A program made the translations under genes and the position numbers. From IMG/VR virus record IMGVR_UViG_3300014514_000015: 6,093 nucleotides of DNA; one strand, given 5' to 3'. Shown piece by piece: positions 341 to 6,048 of this stretch. A model generated the notes under the pieces. That model searched no databases. It was not told the origin of the DNA and saw nothing but the letters and a program-made list of their open reading frames with translations. This stretch comes from a virus (taxonomy: Duplodnaviria; Heunggongvirae; Uroviricota; Caudoviricetes). Numbering within the stretch: the stretch's first letter is position 1; every line of letters starts with the position of its first letter.

Positions 341-646
341 TTATCGACAGGTCAGGTCACCGCTCACCCGCCGACGAGAAAGCAACACTGACATGCTAAA
401 GCAAAAAATAGATGAATAAGTTGAGTTGTGCATATGTAGCCTGACCGTCACAAAGTATATGGTGTCTGTACCAGTAAGATGATGGCCGGACTCTTTAAAA
501 ACGAGCTGACCTGCACAATACAGGATGGACTTAGCAATGGCTGCTCCTGGCACAAAGCGGACAGTGATCACCGTTCTTACGACTACTTTCTGACTTCCTT
601 CGTGACTTGCCCTAAGCATGTTGTAGTGCGATACTTGTAATGACAT
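341..646 (-). CDS. Hypothetical 101-aa ORF, possibly YdfV-like; coding status doubtful
   Basis: ORF track only; length matches my recollection of Qin YdfV (101 aa) and the position between flxA and relB fits. No Shine-Dalgarno, and its start overlaps the relBE operator. Confidence 0.2.
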   Translation of the reverse strand: MSLQVSHYNMLRASHEGSQKVVVRTVITVRFVPGAAIAKSILYCAGQLVFKESGHHLTGTDTIYFVTVRLHMHNSTYSSIFCFSMSVLLSRRRVSGDLTCR

Positions 647-660
647 TTGTAATTACAAGA
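607..660 (+). promoter_or_regulatory. relBE promoter with overlapping relO operator
   Basis: -35 TTGCCC (607-612), 17-bp spacer, -10 GATACT (630-635). Operator CTTGTAATGACATTTGTAATTACAAGA (634-660) contains a perfect 12-bp palindrome TTGTAATTACAA (647-658) and 8-bp inverted arms CTTGTAAT/ATTACAAG. SD AAGAGG at 658-663. Confidence 0.6.
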
Positions 661-670
661 GGTGTAAGAC

Positions 671-910
671 ATGGGTAGCATTAACCTGCGTATTGACGAT
701 GAACTTAAAGCGCGTTCTTACGCCGCGCTTGAAAAAATGGGTGTAACTCCTTCTGAAGCGCTTCGTCTCATGCTCGAGTATATCGCTGACAATGAACGCT
801 TGCCGTTCAAACAGACACTCCTGAGTGATGAAGATGCTGAACTTGTGGAGATAGTGAAAGAACGGCTTCGTAATCCTAAGCCAGTACGTGTGACGCTGGA
901 TGAACTCTGA
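671..910 (+). CDS. relB: RelB antitoxin (RelB/DinJ family), 79 aa
   Basis: Translation MGSINLRIDDELKARSYAALEKMGVTPSEALRLMLEYIADNERLPFKQTLLSDEDAELVEIVKERLRNPKPVRVTLDEL is near-identical to E. coli RelB as I recall it; SD upstream; stop overlaps relE start (TGATG). Confidence 0.95.
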   Translation: MGSINLRIDDELKARSYAALEKMGVTPSEALRLMLEYIADNERLPFKQTLLSDEDAELVEIVKERLRNPKPVRVTLDEL

Positions 911-1197
911 TGGCGTATTTTCTGGATTTTGACGAGCGGGCACTAAAGGAATGGCGAAAGCTGGGCTCGACGGTACGTGAACAGTTGAAAAAGAAGCTGG
1001 TTGAAGTACTTGAGTCACCCCGGATTGAAGCAAACAAGCTCCGTGGTATGCCTGATTGTTACAAGATTAAGCTCCGGTCTTCAGGCTATCGCCTTGTATA
1101 CCAGGTTATAGACGAGAAAGTTGTCGTTTTCGTGATTTCTGTTGGGAAAAGAGAACGCTCGGAAGTATATAGCGAGGCGGTCAAACGCATTCTCTGA
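910..1197 (+). CDS. relE: RelE mRNA interferase toxin, 95 aa
   Basis: Translation MAYFLDFDERALKEWRKLGSTVREQLKKKLVEVLESPRIEANKLRGMPDCYKIKLRSSGYRLVYQVIDEKVVVFVISVGKRERSEVYSEAVKRIL matches E. coli RelE; translationally coupled to relB. Confidence 0.95.
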   Translation: MAYFLDFDERALKEWRKLGSTVREQLKKKLVEVLESPRIEANKLRGMPDCYKIKLRSSGYRLVYQVIDEKVVVFVISVGKRERSEVYSEAVKRIL

Positions 1198-1268
1198 ACC
1201 AAAGCATGACATCTCTGTTTCGCACCGAAGGTGACACTTCTGCTTTGCGTTGACAGGAGAAGCAGGCT

Positions 1269-1424
1269 ATGAAGCAGCAAAAGGCGATGTTAATCGCCCT
1301 GATCGTCATCTGTTTAACCGTCATAGTGACGGCACTGGTAACGAGGAAAGACCTCTGCGAGGTACGAATCCGAACCGGCCAGACGGAGGTCGCTGTCTTC
1401 ACAGCTTACGAACCTGAGGAGTAA
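1269..1424 (+). CDS. hokD: Hok-family membrane toxin HokD (RelF), 51 aa
   Basis: Manual translation MKQQKAMLIALIVICLTVIVTALVTRKDLCEVRIRTGQTEVAVFTAYEPEE is a hydrophobic Hok-type peptide; SD AGGAG at 1255-1259. Under 60 aa, so absent from the ORF track. Confidence 0.85.
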   Translation: MKQQKAMLIALIVICLTVIVTALVTRKDLCEVRIRTGQTEVAVFTAYEPEE

Positions 1425-1493
1425 GAGACCTGGCGAGGGAGAAATCCCTCGCCACCTCTGATGAGTCAGGCATCCTCAACGCACCCGCACTTA

Positions 1494-1519
1494 ACCCGCT
1501 TCGGCGGGTTTTGTTTTTT
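1494..1519 (+). terminator. Rho-independent terminator closing the relBE-hokD operon
   Basis: Stem CCCGC/GCGGG with TTCG tetraloop (1495-1508) followed by TTTTGTTTTTT. Confidence 0.7.
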
Positions 1520-1591
1520 CCTGGCATTCTGGTTTACAATTCGCACGTCAGCCTGAACACCTGACACCTGCTGCGCCAGCAGAGAAAACAG

Positions 1592-1864
1592 ATGGCGCAC
1601 AAAACCAAATTTCACAATTCTGATACCGACCTTGCCATCCGGCATGAGCGGCGTTCACACGCATTTAAAACCGACTGGTACCAACACCCACCATGTACTG
1701 AAGAACAGGCCGAATGGCTAATTCATAACTACCGCAGACGCGGATACGAGATTAAGAAAGCCCTCAGCCTCGATTATCGTCACTGGATAATCTATGTCAG
1801 GCTCCCTTATTCCGAACGCCCACCGCGCCCATCCCGCACATACCAGCAACGGATCTGGAGGTAA
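1592..1864 (+). CDS. Hypothetical protein, Rem-like by position (90 aa)
   Basis: ORF directly downstream of hokD, as rem is in Qin; basic and proline-rich C-terminus; stop at 1862-1864 abuts the next gene's start. Confidence 0.4.
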   Translation: MAHKTKFHNSDTDLAIRHERRSHAFKTDWYQHPPCTEEQAEWLIHNYRRRGYEIKKALSLDYRHWIIYVRLPYSERPPRPSRTYQQRIWR

Positions 1865-1865
1865 C

Positions 1866-2915
1866 GTGCGGATATTACTTCGACCTGTTCTGGTACCGGA
1901 ACTCGGGCTTGTGGTCCTTAGGCCGGGCTGTGAATCCATGCAAGTATTTCATAACCCTCGAGTGCTGGTGGAGCCTGAACCGAAAAGCATGCGTAATCTG
2001 CCGTCCGGGGTCGTTCCTGCCGTTCGCCAGCCGCTGGCGGAGGATAAATCATTACTGCCATTTTTCAGCAATGAGCGTGTGATTCGTGCTGCTGGCGGCG
2101 CTGGTGCACTGTCTGACTGGCTGTTGCGCCATATTAAATCCTGCCAGTGGCCACACGGTGATTATCACCACAGTGAAACCGTCATTCACCGTTATGGTAC
2201 CGGCGCAATGGTGTTGTGCTGGCACTGCGACAACCAGTTGCGTGACCAGACATCCGAATCACTCGAGCAACTTGCTCATCAAAACCTGTCAGCATGGATG
2301 ATTGACGTCATCGGTCACGCAATAAGCGGTACGCAGGAGCGTGAATTATCTCTGGCTGAATTATCCTGGTGGGCGGTCCGCAATCAGGTGGCGGACGCGC
2401 TACCGGAAGCGGTATTACGTCGTTCGCTGGGGTTGCGTGCGGAAAAAATCCGCTCAATGTACCGTGAAAGCGACATCGTACCGGGAGAGCAGACCGCCAC
2501 CAGCATACTGAAACAGCGCACAAAAAATCTTGCGCCGCTGCCTCACGCCCACCAGCAACAGAACCCACCACAGGAAAAGACGGTGGTCAGCATTGCCGTT
2601 GATCCTGAGTCTCCGGAATCTTTCATGAAACGACCTAAACGTCGCCGCTGGGTTAACGAGAAATACACACGCTGGGTGAAGACACAGCCGTGTGCGTGTT
2701 GTGGTAAGCCAGCCGACGATCCCCATCACCTGATTGGTCATGGTCAGGGCGGAATGGGGACAAAATCTCACGATATTTTCACGCTACCGCTGTGTCGGGA
2801 GCATCACAACGAGCTTCATGCGGATCCTCTGGCGTTCGAAGAAAAGCATGGTTCTCAGGTTGATTTAATTTTTCGTTTTCTTGATCACGCCTTTGCAACT
2901 GGCGTGCTTGGGTAA
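1866..2915 (+). CDS. DUF968 / YdfU-like prophage protein with a Cys/His-rich C-terminal region (NinG-like position)
   Basis: Long ORF. GTG at 1866 gives 349 aa, with GGAGG at 1857-1861; alternative starts are ATG 1794 and ATG 1938. C-terminus carries QPCACCGKPADDPHHLIGHG...LPLCREHHNELH. Confidence 0.65.
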   Translation: MRILLRPVLVPELGLVVLRPGCESMQVFHNPRVLVEPEPKSMRNLPSGVVPAVRQPLAEDKSLLPFFSNERVIRAAGGAGALSDWLLRHIKSCQWPHGDYHHSETVIHRYGTGAMVLCWHCDNQLRDQTSESLEQLAHQNLSAWMIDVIGHAISGTQERELSLAELSWWAVRNQVADALPEAVLRRSLGLRAEKIRSMYRESDIVPGEQTATSILKQRTKNLAPLPHAHQQQNPPQEKTVVSIAVDPESPESFMKRPKRRRWVNEKYTRWVKTQPCACCGKPADDPHHLIGHGQGGMGTKSHDIFTLPLCREHHNELHADPLAFEEKHGSQVDLIFRFLDHAFATGVLG

Positions 2916-2927
2916 AAGAGGTGACTG

Positions 2928-3287
2928 ATGCTCATAGATTTGGTTTTACCTTACCCGCCGACGGTGAACACTTACTGGCGACGCCGTGGCAGCACATATT
3001 TTATCTCGGAGGAGGGAAAGCGTTATCGCCGGGCTGTGGCGCTTATTGTTCGCCAGCAGCGGCTGAAATTAAGCCTGTCCGGACGGCTGGCAATAAAAAT
3101 TATTGCAGAGCCACCGGATAAGCGCCGTCGTGACCTGGACAATATCCTGAAAGCACCACTGGATGCGCTGACGCATGCCGGACTTCTCATAGACGACGAG
3201 CAGTTTGATGAAATCAATATTGTGCGCGGTCAGCTCGTTCCTGGTGGGCGGCTGGGGATAAAAATCACAGAACTGGAGTGCGCATGA
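2928..3287 (+). CDS. rusA: RusA-family Holliday junction resolvase, 119 aa
   Basis: N-terminal motif LPYPPTVNTYWRRRG and the DKRRRDLDN acidic catalytic motif typical of RusA; SD AAGAGG at 2916-2921; stop overlaps Q start (ATGA). Confidence 0.85.
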   Translation: MLIDLVLPYPPTVNTYWRRRGSTYFISEEGKRYRRAVALIVRQQRLKLSLSGRLAIKIIAEPPDKRRRDLDNILKAPLDALTHAGLLIDDEQFDEINIVRGQLVPGGRLGIKITELECA

Positions 3288-3973
3288 ATAACCAGTATTT
3301 ACAGTTTGTGCGTGAGCAGCTCATTATCGCCACCGCTGATTTGAGTGGGGCAACAAAAGGTCAGCTTGAAGCCTGGCAGGAGAATGCCATGTTCGATACA
3401 GGGCGTTACAGGCGAAAAAAAATCCGGTACCGCGATGAAGTGACTGGAAAAATGATAACGCGGGATAATCCACCAATCCCGGGAAAACAATCACTGGCGA
3501 ATGGCTCATCAATTGCCCTGGTCAGCCCGGTTGAGTTTTCGACATCATCATGGCGGCGGGCTTTGCTGTCTCTTGAAGAGCATCATAAAGCCTGGTTGTT
3601 GTGGTGTTACGGCGAGAGTATTTGTTGGGAATATCAGATCGCGATAACACAGTGGGCGTGGAATGAATTTAATACTCAATCCGGTACCAGAAAAATTGCA
3701 GGGAAAACGCAGGAACGCCTGAAAAAATTAATCTGGCTGGCGGCGCAGGCAGTAAAAGCAGAACTTTTTGGTGGGGAAGGTTATGAATACCAGGAGCTGG
3801 CATTACTGGCGGGAGTGACAACTAAAAACTGGTCCAAAACATTTACTCGTCACTGGGTTGCAATGAAACACATTTTTCAACGACTGGATAGTGAGGCTTT
3901 ATTGTTTGTAATGAGAACACGTTCAAAACAAAAGGCGGCATTTTCAAAGCAAAGTGTTGCAAAAGTAGATTGA
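3284..3973 (+). CDS. Late-gene antitermination protein Q (lambdoid Q family), about 229 aa
   Basis: Position immediately upstream of a late promoter and terminator, translation resembling Qin-type Q proteins; ATG 3284 with GGAG at 3275-3278. The ORF track starts at in-frame GTG 3278. Confidence 0.75.
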   Translation: MNNQYLQFVREQLIIATADLSGATKGQLEAWQENAMFDTGRYRRKKIRYRDEVTGKMITRDNPPIPGKQSLANGSSIALVSPVEFSTSSWRRALLSLEEHHKAWLLWCYGESICWEYQIAITQWAWNEFNTQSGTRKIAGKTQERLKKLIWLAAQAVKAELFGGEGYEYQELALLAGVTTKNWSKTFTRHWVAMKHIFQRLDSEALLFVMRTRSKQKAAFSKQSVAKVD

Positions 3974-3985
3974 AAGGCATATATT
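3957..3985 (+). promoter_or_regulatory. PR'-like late promoter overlapping the end of Q
   Basis: -35 TTGCAA (3957-3962), 17-bp spacer, -10 TATATT (3980-3985). Confidence 0.45.
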
Positions 3986-4036
3986 TCATGCAAATCTGAT
4001 ATTTTGCCGATTTTGTACGTGATGGCAAAAGCAAAC

Positions 4037-4063
4037 AAAACCCGCCCACAAGCGGGTTTTTTT
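4037..4063 (+). terminator. tR'-like rho-independent terminator, the expected target of Q antitermination
   Basis: AAAA-CCCGC-CCACAA-GCGGG-TTTTTTT: 5-bp GC stem with flanking A and T tracts. Confidence 0.7.
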
Positions 4064-4145
4064 GTGCCACTTATCTCGGATAGACATGGTGAATGCGCTG
4101 GTGGAGGAGCTAAGGGTGATTTTTAACCAGGTGATTTTTGAATGC

Positions 4146-4174
4146 TTGCAACATTGATTTCGTAACGTTATTAT
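4146..4174 (+). promoter_or_regulatory. Sigma-70 promoter for the tRNA operon with a GC-rich discriminator
   Basis: -35 TTGCAA (4146-4151), 17-bp spacer, -10 TATTAT (4169-4174), then CCTGCGCC before the first tRNA at 4184. GGTGATTTTT direct repeat at 4115-4124 and 4130-4139 just upstream. Confidence 0.5.
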
Positions 4175-4183
4175 CCTGCGCCC

Positions 4184-4259
4184 GGCCCTTTAGCTCAGAG
4201 GTGAGAGCGAGCGACTCATAATCGCCAGGTCGCTGGTTCAAATCCAGCAAGGGCCACCA
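4184..4259 (+). tRNA. ileZ: tRNA with CAU anticodon, probably Ile2 (lysidine-type, ileZ-like), 76 nt
   Basis: Cloverleaf folded by hand: acceptor GGCCCTT/AAGGGCC, anticodon loop CTCATAA, T-arm GCTGG-TTCAAAT-CCAGC, encoded CCA. Ile versus Met cannot be decided from sequence alone. Confidence 0.85.
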
Positions 4260-4266
4260 TCACATA

Positions 4267-4343
4267 CCGCCATTAGCTCATCAGGATAGAGCACCAGCCT
4301 TCGAAGCTGGTTGCGCGGGGGTCGAGTCCTCGATGGCGGTCCA
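4267..4343 (+). tRNA. argN: tRNA-Arg with UCG anticodon (argN-like), 77 nt
   Basis: Acceptor CCGCCAT/ATGGCGG, D-loop with A20, anticodon loop CTTCGAA (C35 present), encoded CCA. The T-loop GTCGAGT and the C1-G72 pair are atypical. Confidence 0.75.
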
Positions 4344-4356
4344 TTATCTGTACCCT

Positions 4357-4433
4357 GCGTTGTTAGCTCAACCGGACAGAGCAATTGCCTTCTAAGCAAT
4401 CGGTCACTGGTTCGAATCCAGTACAACGCGCCA
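4357..4433 (+). tRNA. argO: tRNA-Arg with UCU anticodon (argO/argU-like), 77 nt
   Basis: Acceptor GCGTTGT/ACAACGC, anticodon loop CTTCTAA, T-arm ACTGG-TTCGAAT-CCAGT, discriminator G, encoded CCA. Confidence 0.85.
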
Positions 4434-4447
4434 GACTTATTTTTCCC

Positions 4448-4473
4448 GGCTCGCTTTTGCGGGCCTTTTTTTT
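4448..4473 (+). terminator. Rho-independent terminator after the tRNA operon
   Basis: 7-bp stem GGCTCGC/GCGGGCC (one G-U pair), TTTT loop, followed by eight T. Confidence 0.75.
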
Positions 4474-4673
4474 AAATGTCTCACAATTCAGACGGTTGAC
4501 AGTTGTCTGTTTTGCGGGGAGTTTGTTAAAAGAAACTGGCATGGTGAATCCCCCTGTGCGGAGGGGCAATCAGCGAGTAGGTATATGGGATAATCGCGGA
4601 TTCAGGTGCTGGTACTGAATTCACCGGGAGGCACCCGGCACCATGCAGTTGACTGAAACCATGTATACTCTCA

Positions 4674-4703
4674 GGCCCCACGCACATGTGTTGGGGCCTT
4701 TTT
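4674..4703 (+). terminator. Rho-independent terminator in the cargo slot
   Basis: Stem GGCCCCA/TGGGGCC with an 11-nt loop, followed by TTTTT. Confidence 0.55.
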
Positions 4704-4709
4704 ACATGC

Positions 4710-4776
4710 AAAAAAAAGCCCGCATATGGATACGGGCGGCAAGGAACAAAAAACGTGAAGTGATCTATTCAGCCAG
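4710..4776 (-). ncRNA. Candidate small RNA of about 65 nt on the minus strand (predicted promoter-to-terminator unit)
   Basis: Minus-strand promoter -35 TTGCGC (4809-4804), 18-bp spacer, -10 TATTAT (4785-4780). Minus-strand terminator hairpin GCCCG-N10-CGGGC (4737-4718) followed by eight U (plus-strand A run 4710-4717). No ORF with a ribosome-binding site. Confidence 0.2.
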
Positions 4777-4874
4777 TGGATAATACCCTGACGTTACCAT
4801 ATTGCGCAATCGCGCATTCTTTCTTTTTCGCTCCCCTTATAACTACGCCATCCGTTCGCTGCGGAGGTGAGGCT

Positions 4875-5090
4875 ATGAAATCCATGGATAAAATTTCAAC
4901 GGGCATTGCCTACGGCACCTCCGCAGGCAGTGCTGGCTACTGGTTTTTACAGTGGCTTGATCAGGTCAGTCCGTCACAGTGGGCTGCGATTGGTGTACTG
5001 GGGAGTCTGGTTCTGGGCTTCCTGACATATCTGACTAACCTGTATTTCAAAATCAGAGAGGACCGTCGTAAGGCTGCACGGGGAGAGTAA
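4875..5090 (+). CDS. Phage 21 S-type pinholin/antiholin with dual start (71-aa form from Met1, 68-aa form from Met4)
   Basis: Translation [71 protein letters not shown] with two transmembrane segments; SD GGAGGTGA at 4864-4870. The ORF track extends it to 4776, but that upstream part has no SD. Confidence 0.9.
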
Positions 5091-5094
5091 TTCA

Positions 5095-5445
5095 ATGACT
5101 CAAAACTATGAACTGATTGTGAAAGGGATCCGCAATTTTGAGAATAAAGTTACGGTAACTTTAGCGTTACGGGACAAAAAACGCTTTGACGGTGAAATTT
5201 TTGACCTGGACATCTCGCTGGACCGTGTTGAAGGTGCCGCGCTGGGGTTTTATGAGGCAGCAGCCAGAAGGAGCATCAGACAGGTCTTCCTGGATGTTGC
5301 TGCCGGGTTATGTGAAGGGGATGAGCAGTCGCCGGAAAAGCGCCCCGTAATTTTAGAGGCGCAGAATGTGTGGATAACCTACAAAGGAAAGCTACCAGGA
5401 AGAATTACTGGTTCTCTGAAGACTCCTCCGGAATCACAACCTTAA
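5095..5445 (+). CDS. DUF1327-type hypothetical protein (YdfR-like) between holin and endolysin, 116 aa
   Basis: ORF with SD GGGAGAG at 5081-5087, 7-nt spacer; N-terminus MTQNYELIVKGIRNFENKVTV resembles my recollection of Qin YdfR; conserved position between S and R. Confidence 0.6.
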   Translation: MTQNYELIVKGIRNFENKVTVTLALRDKKRFDGEIFDLDISLDRVEGAALGFYEAAARRSIRQVFLDVAAGLCEGDEQSPEKRPVILEAQNVWITYKGKLPGRITGSLKTPPESQP

Positions 5446-5508
5446 GTCACTGACCGGAACAGATAAACCTGTCCGTGGGCAGAAACCGATAAATCCTGAT
5501 AAATATCC

Positions 5509-6048
5509 ATGAACGCAAAAATCAGATACGGCCTGTCGGCTGCCGTTCTGGCACTGATTGCCGTCGGTGCGCCCGCGCCTGATATTCTCGACCAGTTTCT
5601 GGATGAAAAAGAAGGTAACCACACAACGGCATACCGCGATGGTTCCGGCATCTGGACCATCTGTCGGGGTGCCACGATGGTGGATGGAAAACCCGTTTTT
5701 CCCGGTATGAAACTGNNNNNNNNNNNNNNNNNNNNNNNNNNNNNNNNNNNNNNNNNNNNNNNNNNNNNNNNNNNNNNNNNNNNNNNNNNNNTAAAGTACC
5801 ACTGACCGAACCACAAAAAGCGGGTATCGCGTCATTTTGTCCCTATAACATTGGCCCCGGTAAGTGTTTTCCATCGACGTTTTATAAGCGGCTGAATGCT
5901 GGTGATCGTAAGGGCGCATGCGAGGCGATTCGCTGGTGGATAAAAGATGGTGGGCGCGATTGCCGCATACGTTCAAATAACTGCTATGGACAGGTTATTC
6001 GTCGTGACCAAGAAAGCGCATTAGCCTGTTGGGGAATAGATCAGTGAG
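5509..6048 (+). CDS. SAR endolysin (T4-lysozyme-like, GH24), interrupted by an assembly gap and with an apparent +1 frameshift near the 3' end
   Basis: N-terminus MNAKIRYGLSAAVLALIAVGA is a signal-anchor-release domain; catalytic pattern E35-x8-D44-x5-T50. After the gap the translation VPLTEPQKAGIASFCPYNIGPGKCFPSTFYKRLNAGDRKGACEAIRWWIKDGGRDCRIRSNNCYGQVI continues the lysozyme fold. That frame stops at 6006-6008; the expected tail RRDQESALACWGIDQ is in the +1 frame and ends at TGA 6046-6048. Confidence 0.75.
5716..5791. other. Assembly gap of 76 N inside the endolysin gene
   Basis: Run of N; reading frames on either side are inconsistent with the gap length, so the length is an estimate (about 71 nt expected from homolog length). 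Confidence 0.95.

What the first reader, a model, noticed from the sequence alone, without database searches (positions are those of the whole stretch)
671..1519. relB-relE-hokD toxin-antitoxin cassette embedded in the prophage early-right region
A type II module (RelBE) plus a Hok-family membrane toxin are co-transcribed between the flxA-like gene and the nin-like recombination genes, as in Qin. Here hokD is intact (51 codons, good SD). I could not find an obvious sok-like antisense promoter or a mok overlapping frame, so its control may depend on coupling to relE. The module could act in prophage maintenance or abortive infection.
Basis: partly seen in the sequence, partly recalled or inferred. 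Interest (0 to 1): 0.45.

Follow-up and report, generated by a model that had tools for sequence, protein, structure and literature searches.

The report
Known relB-relE-hokD prophage toxin operon
This is the well-studied relB-relE-hokD ("relBEF") toxin-antitoxin operon of Qin-type E. coli prophages, base-for-base identical to the K-12 copy, so it is real but ordinary.

Summary
Window 671-910 is relB, 910-1197 is relE and 1269-1424 is hokD, followed by one intrinsic terminator (1493-1519). From 560 to 1430 the DNA is 100% identical to the relBEF operon of E. coli K-12 prophage Qin. About 1,160 of 5,426 complete E. coli genomes carry the same cassette.

There is no Sok gene, no Sok-type promoter and no mok start. 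The Rfam sok/hok-leader model finds nothing here, yet scores 84-118 bits on six complete hok loci used as controls.

Sister prophages that are 100% identical from base 1255 onward carry a full sok/mok leader upstream. This places the relBE/hok junction at 1254|1255, just before the hokD ribosome-binding site. The literature already describes hokD as a hok gene stripped of its leader by relBE integration.

Three hok features survive:
- an intact toxin ORF
- a conserved helix that buries the hokD start region
- the TadA-editable Tyr codon

Direct relE-hokD coupling is unlikely because of a 71-nt gap. A 15-codon upstream ORF could relay it, but this is untested.

Verdict: already known, low interest.

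The parts
607..635 (+). Probable relBEF promoter: TTGCCC (607-612), 17-nt spacer, TGcGATACT extended -10 (627-635)
   Evidence: My reading of the sequence, identical to K-12. It scores 8 of 12 and so falls below the threshold of the consensus scan, which reported no promoter-like site. The assignment is an inference.
634..659 (.). relO-type operator: inverted repeat CTTGTAATGACA / TGTAATTACAAG overlapping the -10 and transcription start region
   Evidence: Inverted repeat I4, 12-nt arms, 92% complementary. RelB/RelBE binding here is established knowledge for the identical K-12 sequence and was not tested here.
671..910 (+). relB antitoxin and autorepressor (79 aa)
   Evidence: 100% identical to K-12.
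910..1197 (+). relE ribosome-dependent mRNA endonuclease toxin (95 aa). Its ATG overlaps the relB stop (TGATG).
   Evidence: 100% identical to K-12. K52, K54, R61, R81, R83 and Y87 are present by direct reading.
1198..1254 (+). relE-hokD spacer. It has no detectable homology to canonical hok leaders. It is invariant wherever relBE precedes a hok gene.
1206..1253 (+). 15-codon upstream ORF (MTSLFRTEGDTSALR*). Its ATG is 8 nt after the relE stop and its TGA is 15 nt before the hokD ATG, in the same frame as hokD. It is a candidate relay for translational coupling (hypothesis only).
   Evidence: Direct reading. The frame is kept open in the 84%-identical short-leader hok loci L014 and L018. It has no SD, no coding-type substitution pattern and is not annotated in K-12.
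1250..1417 (+). Remnant of the mok reading frame, open but lacking its native start and SD
   Evidence: The window ORF matches the C-terminal ~52 codons of the 68-codon mok ORF of IncY locus L007.
1255..1259 (+). hokD Shine-Dalgarno (AGGAG). Also the first bases shared with complete hok/sok loci, so the junction is at 1254|1255.
1269..1424 (+). hokD (relF), 51-aa Hok/Gef membrane toxin
   Evidence: Identical to K-12 HokD and to WP_000813254.1. 42% identical to R1 Hok.
1256..1278 (+). 5' arm of a conserved helix that sequesters the hokD SD, AUG and first codons
   Evidence: RNAalifold on 9 hok loci. 87.9% of cells paired against 36-42% for slid controls, and 11 of 20 pairs have compensatory changes. 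Also present in the single-sequence MFE.
1392..1415 (+). 3' arm of that helix, inside the end of the hokD coding region
1407..1410 (+). TACG: the Tyr47 codon plus G, the TadA A-to-I editing motif that recodes Tyr to Cys
   Evidence: Direct reading. Editing of hokD at this aligned position was reported in K-12 at about 6% (PMC5630033, PMC12214031).
1426..1459 (+). 3'UTR hairpin conserved among hok mRNAs
   Evidence: Inverted repeat I1, 15-nt arms. Aligned with other hok loci.
1470..1486 (+). Homologue of the hok fbi (fold-back inhibition) element. Its normal 5' partner, tac, is absent.
   Evidence: It aligns with the IncY and sister-prophage 3'UTR, whose own 5' end GGGTGCTTGAGG is complementary to it. 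No tac is present in the window.
1493..1519 (+). Intrinsic terminator ending the relB-relE-hokD unit

Best explanation
This is the relBEF operon of a Qin-type lambdoid prophage: a type II RelB/RelE module with a Sok-less hok gene as third cistron.

Shown, or established for the identical K-12 sequence:
- One promoter upstream of relB drives a single relB-relE-hokD transcript that ends at the terminator at 1493-1519.
- RelB and RelB-RelE repress that promoter at the inverted repeat at 634-659.
- When RelB is depleted the operon is derepressed and RelE cleaves mRNA in the ribosomal A site.
- HokD is a 51-aa inner-membrane toxin that kills when overproduced.

Shown here: hokD is the downstream half of a hokW/sokW-type locus. 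Everything upstream of its Shine-Dalgarno (tac, mok start, Sok target, Sok gene and promoter) has been replaced at 1254|1255 by relBE plus a 57-nt spacer. No antisense control is therefore possible.

Inferred: HokD output is kept low by three things.
1. RelB-mediated transcriptional repression.
2. A conserved helix that buries the hokD SD and AUG. In complete loci this helix is opened by mok translation, and mok has no functional equivalent here.
3. Dependence of the second cysteine on inefficient TadA editing of Tyr47.

On this reading hokD is a largely silent passenger. It would be expressed only on strong derepression or on read-through during prophage induction.
For: - Identity to K-12 relBEF over 560-1430.
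- Domain and family matches.
- One terminator, located after hokD, and none between relE and hokD.
- Operator repeat at 634-659.
- Co-transcription and accumulation of the relF part of the mRNA in K-12 (PMC3598666; also PMC5120126).
- No Sok or hok-leader match in the window, against 84-118 bits in six control loci.
- Sister prophages are 100% identical from 1255 to 5715 but carry a full sok leader upstream. IncY hokD-like loci are homologous only from ~1254.
- Conserved start-region-sequestering helix with compensatory changes.
- TACG editing motif retained (PMC5630033, PMC12214031).
- HokD coding sequence toxic on overexpression (bioRxiv 10.1101/2025.08.07.668861).
- Prior description of relBE integration truncating the hok locus (PMC6379469), and of hokD lacking canonical TA components through rearrangement (PMC12214031, citing Pedersen and Gerdes 1999).
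Against: - No experiment on this sequence was possible. Everything about expression comes from the identical K-12 locus.
- The claim that hokD is nearly silent is an inference. Predicted unpaired probability of the SD is only moderately low (0.26-0.41) and changes little between RNA contexts.
- The helix was predicted from the same nine sequences used to count covariation.
- relBE plus spacer is found fused to at least four different intact hok alleles in several genera. That argues hok is kept for a reason rather than being a dead passenger.
- The promoter scan missed even the probable relB promoter, so its negative result for a Sok promoter is weak on its own.
Confidence: 0.85

Rival explanations
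1. Composite three-gene module. hokD is a selected, functional third component whose translation is relayed from relE. Ribosomes terminating at the relE stop (1195-1197) would reinitiate 8 nt downstream on the 15-codon ORF (1206-1253). That ORF ends 15 nt before the hokD AUG, so its translation would open the start-region helix and allow hokD initiation. In effect it would be a mini-mok driven by relE translation instead of being gated by Sok.
For: - The geometry of the ORF.
- The same ORF frame is open in 84%-identical short-leader hok loci.
- The hokD start region is buried in a conserved helix that normally needs upstream translation to open.
- relBE plus an almost invariant spacer (98-100% identical) precedes at least four different intact hok alleles (62-66% identical coding sequences) in plasmids and chromosomes of at least eight genera.
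- relE itself appears to be translated by coupling to relB (PMC3598666).
Against: - No SD precedes the ORF.
- The nine substitutions between the two ORF versions fall 4/4/1 on codon positions 1/2/3, which is not a coding pattern (my count, 64 sequences).
- Keeping 15 codons open is expected by chance.
- The ORF is not annotated in K-12, although many small proteins in Qin are.
- The near-identity of the relBE-spacer copies means they add no independent evidence of constraint.
Confidence: 0.2
2. Lysis helper. As shown for hokW-sokW of Stx2 prophage Sp5, the hok gene at this position would be expressed on prophage induction and advance host lysis and phage release. relBE would simply be inserted upstream.
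For: - hokD here is 98.5-100% identical to the hok gene that sits at the same place (before the 90-aa ORF, DUF968, rusA and Q) in inducible and Stx phages, where it is annotated MokW or gef.
- HokW promotes Sp5 release (PMC8621323).
- The cassette has the same orientation as the downstream Q and lysis genes.
- A complete phage record (PhiR42_1) carries flxA-ydfV-relB-relE-hok.
Against: - In Sp5 the trigger is loss of SokW RNA, which cannot apply here.
- No expression data exist for this arrangement during induction.
- Qin in K-12 is defective.
Confidence: 0.15
3. A canonical hok/sok/mok locus that the first reader overlooked.
For: An open mok-frame remnant overlaps hokD, and the 3' fbi-like element is retained.
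Against: - There is no sok-model hit even at E<=10 on a 201-nt search space, while all control loci score 84-118 bits.
- The region where Sok would be encoded (about 49-107 nt upstream of the ATG, as annotated for sokC) is the end of relE plus the spacer.
- There are no promoter-like sites on either strand.
- The in-frame TGA at 1251-1253 blocks any N-terminal extension of hokD.
Confidence: 0.02
4. hokD is an inactivated pseudogene.
For: The literature calls K-12 hokD "inactivated by rearrangement" in the sense that it has lost TA regulation (PMC12214031, PMC5630033).
Against: - The ORF is intact and identical in K-12, Shigella and prophages that still have Sok.
- The coding sequence is toxic on overexpression (bioRxiv 10.1101/2025.08.07.668861).
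- It is transcribed and edited in K-12 (PMC5630033).
Confidence: 0.03

Closest known systems
relBEF (relB-relE-hokD/relF) operon of cryptic prophage Qin, E. coli K-12 MG1655 (b1564-b1562)
   Same: 100% nucleotide identity from 111 nt upstream of relB through the hokD stop and 6 nt beyond (560-1430). Same ydfV/flxA left neighbours, same spacer and same terminator.
   Different: There are four substitutions in the 3'UTR hairpin region. Downstream of the terminator the window continues into a different nin/Q/lysis arm (90-aa ORF, DUF968, RusA, Q, three tRNAs) instead of rem-ydfU-ydfT.
hokW-sokW type I TA of Stx2 prophage Sp5 and related lambdoid prophages (for example E. coli WP5-S17-ESBL-10, locus L015)
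   Same: Same Hok protein (WP_000813254.1). 100% DNA identity from 1255 to 5715 in L015, and 98.5% to phage records annotated MokW or gef. Same position ahead of the nin/Q region.
   Different: Those loci have the full 5' leader with tac, mok and Sok (Rfam sok 111.9 bits). Here the leader is replaced by relBE plus spacer.
hok/sok (parB) of plasmid R1
   Same: Hok/Gef toxin family (42% identity). Same SD context, the same start-region-sequestering helix, and a 3' hairpin with an fbi-like element.
   Different: No Sok, no functional mok and no tac. It is transcribed as the third cistron of a protein-regulated operon.
relBE-hok cassettes of IncHI2 and other large enterobacterial plasmids
   Same: Identical RelE protein and relE DNA, and identical RelB protein in all but one locus (L021). 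The spacer is 98-100% identical, the junction at the hok SD is the same, and none has Sok.
   Different: The hok alleles differ (52 aa, 62-66% nucleotide identity), as do the 3'UTRs. The context is a plasmid rather than a prophage.

Membership tests
RelBE type II toxin-antitoxin system | RelB/DinJ-family antitoxin encoded first | tested here: met
   Pfam RelB 112 bits and NCBIfam equivalog NF008412 133 bits against a cut-off of 96. Identical to K-12 RelB.
RelBE type II toxin-antitoxin system | RelE/ParE-fold mRNA interferase with its catalytic basic residues and Tyr87 | tested here: met
   Pfam ParE_toxin and TIGR02385. Full-length match to solved E. coli RelE chains 4FXE, 4V7J and 2KC8. DNA identical to K-12. 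K52, K54, R61, R81, R83 and Y87 were read directly from the translation.
RelBE type II toxin-antitoxin system | Overlapping antitoxin-toxin genes behind an autoregulated promoter with a palindromic operator | tested here: met
   The relB stop and relE start overlap (TGATG at 908-912). Inverted repeat at 634-659. Repression itself was not testable.
RelBE type II toxin-antitoxin system | Toxin activity neutralised by the antitoxin | not testable with these tools
   Established for the identical K-12 proteins.
Hok/Gef type I toxin (protein family) | About 50-aa peptide with an N-terminal transmembrane helix and the conserved Hok core | tested here: met
   Pfam HOK_GEF 82.9 bits against a cut-off of 22, covering the whole 42-position model. 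42% identical to R1 Hok. The NCBIfam Hok models match only below their cut-offs.
Hok/Gef type I toxin (protein family) | Conserved cysteines, with the C-terminal one either encoded or supplied by editing of TAC(G) | tested here: met
   Cys15 and Cys30 are encoded. Tyr47 is TAC followed by G at 1407-1410. Editing is reported for K-12 hokD (PMC5630033).
Complete hok/sok/mok type I TA locus | Sok antisense RNA gene with its promoter, complementary to the mok start region | tested here: not met
   No RF01794 hit at E<=1 in the window or at E<=10 in 1100-1300. Controls score 84-118 bits. No promoter-like site on either strand. No ncRNA is annotated at K-12 hokD, unlike hokB, hokC and hokE.
Complete hok/sok/mok type I TA locus | mok reading frame with its own SD and start, overlapping hok | tested here: not met
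   Only the 3' part of the frame survives (1250-1417, against the 68-codon mok of L007). An in-frame TGA at 1251-1253 precedes hokD.
Complete hok/sok/mok type I TA locus | 5' tac element pairing with the 3' fbi element | tested here: not met
   The fbi homologue is present at 1470-1486, but no tac is present. An 8-nt complement in the spacer (1246-1253) is near chance (P about 0.04) and is not conserved in the other relBE-hok alleles.
Complete hok/sok/mok type I TA locus | Structured hok translation-initiation region | tested here: met
   Helix 1256-1278 with 1392-1415. 87.9% paired across 9 loci and 11 of 20 pairs compensatory.

The most novel reading that the evidence does not exclude
relBE-hok is not an accident that crippled a hok locus. 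It would be a recurrent, selected composite module in which a protein antitoxin/repressor (RelB) and a translational relay (relE stop, then the 15-codon ORF, then hokD) replace Sok RNA as the control of a Hok toxin. That would explain why the same relBE-spacer unit is found joined, always at the hok ribosome-binding site, to at least four different intact hok alleles in prophages and large plasmids of many enterobacterial genera.
Probability: 0.2. Interest if true: 0.45.

Novelty: already known. Interest (0 to 1): 0.12.

Why it matters
As it stands the finding matters little. It re-identifies a textbook operon, and the absence of Sok/mok at hokD has been in the literature since 1999.

It is useful mainly as a clean annotation. 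The hok gene here must not be annotated as a complete type I TA system.

The only open question it touches is how, or whether, a Sok-less Hok toxin is translated from a type II TA transcript. The fixed relBE-spacer unit joined to several hok alleles makes that question easy to test genetically.

Tried and rejected
1. Fold-back control by pairing of the retained fbi element with the spacer or SD. An 8-nt perfect complement exists (1246-1253 with 1477-1484) and appears in the MFE fold. However:
- A complement at least that long occurs in 4% of shuffles.
- Duplex energies of leader against 3'UTR are not better than shuffles in any of three loci (P = 0.56, 0.22, 0.19).
- Removing the 3' end in silico barely changes SD accessibility.
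- The spacer 8-mer is invariant while the fbi region differs in the other relBE-hok alleles.
I rejected this as evidence.

2. The spacer as a decayed mok/Sok-target region. Local alignments of 1198-1253 to the R1, IncY, hokB, hokC and hokE leaders are no better than shuffles (P = 0.17-0.92). Only the short-leader hok loci of Klebsiella and Escherichia sp. match (BLAST E = 2e-10). The origin of the spacer is left open.

3. A/T polymorphism in the spacer (CCGAAGG or CCGATGG) as a compensatory change with the 3'UTR. It fits one allele but not the others, so I rejected it.

4. The consensus promoter scan found nothing on either strand of 500-1700. It also misses the probable relB promoter, so it is a weak negative.

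5. The weak Rfam isrK-like hit at 1433-1514 (27.8 bits against a gathering score of 50) recurs in the sister prophage. It corresponds to the hok 3'UTR hairpin plus terminator, so I did not treat it as an sRNA gene.

6. Pedersen and Gerdes 1999 and Gerdes et al. 1986 could not be read. Their content is cited only through later papers.

Full report
**Observation**

The window contains three consecutive plus-strand ORFs at exactly the coordinates given.
- 671-910 (79 aa) matches Pfam RelB (E=1e-32) and the NCBIfam RelB equivalog above its cut-off.
- 910-1197 (95 aa) matches ParE_toxin and RelE_StbE, and aligns full-length to solved E. coli RelE chains.
- 1269-1424 (51 aa) matches HOK_GEF over the whole model.

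AGGAG lies 9 nt before the hokD ATG. The only terminator-like site between 500 and 1700 is at 1493-1519, after hokD, and none lies between relE and hokD. An inverted repeat at 634-659 sits where the relBE operator is expected.

**Identity**

Window 560-1430 is 100% identical to the relB-relE-hokD region of prophage Qin in E. coli K-12 MG1655. Four substitutions follow in the 3'UTR, and similarity to K-12 ends just after the terminator. RefSeq annotates relB, relE and hokD under the match, with ydfV and flxA to the left. 1,162 of 5,426 complete E. coli genomes carry at least 80% of window 560-1620. A complete phage record (PhiR42_1, from ECOR13) has the same flxA-ydfV-relB-relE-hok arrangement.

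**Is there a Sok or a mok?**

The Rfam sok model (RF01794, which covers the hok leader from tac to the hok ATG) gives no hit in the whole window at E<=1. It also gives none in 1100-1300 at E<=10. The same model scores 84-118 bits on six control loci:
- K-12 hokC
- K-12 hokB
- K-12 hokE
- an R1-type hok
- hokD-like loci on IncY (P1-like) plasmids
- a sister prophage

No promoter-like site is found on either strand of 500-1700. That scan also misses the probable relB promoter, so it is a weak negative. K-12 has annotated sokB, sokC and sokE but nothing at hokD.

An in-frame TGA at 1251-1253 rules out an N-terminally extended (MokC-type) product. A different-frame ORF at 1250-1417 matches the last ~52 codons of the 68-codon mok ORF of the IncY locus, but lacks its start and SD.

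**Where the hok locus was cut**

Many E. coli prophages (for example locus L015) are 100% identical to the window from 1255 to 5715 but unrelated upstream. They encode the same Hok protein, preceded by a complete leader with a 111.9-bit sok match. Phage records with 98.5% identity annotate it as MokW or gef. This corresponds to the hokW-sokW system of Stx2 prophage Sp5 (PMC8621323).

The three-way alignment puts the junction at 1254|1255, immediately before the hokD SD. Because the window equals K-12 Qin up to 1430 and equals L015 from 1255, this prophage looks like a recombinant of a Qin-type left arm and an L015-type right arm that crossed over within hokD.

The literature already states that relBE, acquired from plasmids, integrated into the hok locus and truncated it (PMC6379469). 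It also states that hokD lacks canonical TA components because of a rearrangement (PMC12214031, citing Pedersen and Gerdes 1999, which I could not read).

**What survives of the hok regulatory apparatus**

Nine hok loci share a helix that pairs the SD, AUG and first codons with the 3' end of the coding region. In the window these arms are 1256-1278 and 1392-1415. 87.9% of cells are paired against 36-42% when partners are slid. Eleven of 20 pairs show compensatory changes, and covariation is 0.43 against about 0.1. The caveats are that the structure was predicted from the same sequences and that there are only nine of them.

The 3'UTR hairpin (1426-1459) and the fbi homologue (1470-1486) are retained. 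The tac partner of fbi is gone. The Tyr47 codon sits in a TACG motif (1407-1410). In K-12 it is edited by TadA to a Cys codon at about 6% (PMC5630033, PMC12214031).

**Mechanism**

For the identical K-12 sequence, relB, relE and relF (hokD) are co-transcribed from the relB promoter. Toxin-induced cleavage leaves the relF portion as the most abundant fragment (PMC3598666; PMC5120126). The HokD coding sequence is toxic on overexpression (bioRxiv 10.1101/2025.08.07.668861).

I infer that HokD output from the native operon is normally low, for three reasons:
1. RelB represses transcription.
2. The start region is buried in a helix that needs upstream translation to open, and mok is absent.
3. The genome encodes Tyr rather than the second Cys.

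Predicted SD accessibility is only moderately low and insensitive to context, so this inference is soft.

**The coupling idea**

The relE stop (1195-1197) is 71 nt from the hokD ATG, so ordinary coupling is implausible. A 15-codon ORF (1206-1253) starts 8 nt after the relE stop. It ends 15 nt before the hokD ATG and could relay ribosomes. Its frame is open in the 84%-identical short-leader hok loci of a Klebsiella plasmid and an Escherichia sp. contig. It has no SD, its substitutions do not look like coding changes, and it is unannotated. I keep it as an untested hypothesis.

**A side result**

The relE DNA is 100% identical, the RelE protein is identical in every locus and the RelB protein in all but one (L021). 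The spacer (98-100% identical) precedes at least four different intact hok alleles, with 62-66% coding identity and 54-61% 3'UTR identity. These occur on IncHI2 and other plasmids and contigs of Salmonella, Enterobacter, Klebsiella, Pseudocitrobacter, Huaxiibacter, Superficieibacter and a Pantoea-labelled isolate, always joined at the hok SD. None of those tested has a sok match. This fits allele swapping by recombination at the conserved SD. It leaves room for the view that the relBE-hok linkage is selected. A recent Hok survey I searched does not mention it.

**Rejected ideas**

Fold-back pairing of fbi with the spacer or SD is not supported. Homology of the spacer to canonical leaders is not significant. 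The weak isrK-like hit is simply the hok 3'UTR hairpin plus terminator.

**Verdict**

The locus is already known, and interest is low. The residual open question is how a Sok-less hok is translated from a type II TA transcript.

Noticed in passing
window 1255-5715, compared with L015 and with K-12 (L001): The window is 100% identical to K-12 Qin up to 1430 and 100% identical to a different prophage type (E. coli WP5-S17-ESBL-10 and others) from 1255 on. This prophage therefore looks like a recombinant whose crossover lies inside hokD.
   Followed up: partly
L008, L017, L019-L022, L028, L029 (plasmids and contigs of several genera): The same relBE plus spacer unit (98-100% identical) is joined at the hok SD to at least four different intact hok alleles (62-66% identical). 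None of those tested has a sok match.
   Followed up: partly
window 1206-1253: An unannotated 15-codon ORF lies between relE and hokD, in frame with hokD and stopped by a TGA just before the hokD SD. It is identical in K-12.
   Followed up: partly
L014 about 900-1250 and L018: Stand-alone hok genes carry the same short leader as the relE-hokD spacer (84% identical) and give no sok-model hit (tested for L014). On the Klebsiella plasmid the hok gene is divergent from a GNAT/DUF1778 type II TA pair.
   Followed up: partly
window 4184-4433: Three tRNA genes lie directly after the Q antiterminator gene. ARAGORN calls anticodons CAT, TCG and TCT (Met/Ile2-type, Arg, Arg), and RefSeq calls them Ile, Arg, Arg. 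This is the ileZ-argN-argO-like cluster typical of Stx-type lambdoid phages, but no stx genes follow.
   Followed up: no
window 4510-4709: Strong match to the Rfam sRNA family STnc100 (140 bits against a gathering score of 47) between the tRNAs and the holin gene.
   Followed up: no
window 5716-5791: A run of 76 N interrupts the lysozyme gene, so the source is a scaffolded draft assembly.
   Followed up: no
window 1433-1514 and 3990-4062: Weak sub-threshold matches to the Salmonella prophage sRNA families isrK and isrJ. One is on the hokD 3'UTR and the other is just after the Q gene. They are probably hairpin-plus-terminator resemblance.
   Followed up: partly
window 1466-1645 (minus strand) and 1592-1864 (plus strand): Two overlapping small ORFs after the hokD terminator are annotated as hypothetical proteins in RefSeq relatives. 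The 90-aa plus-strand ORF has no Pfam or NCBIfam match.
   Followed up: no
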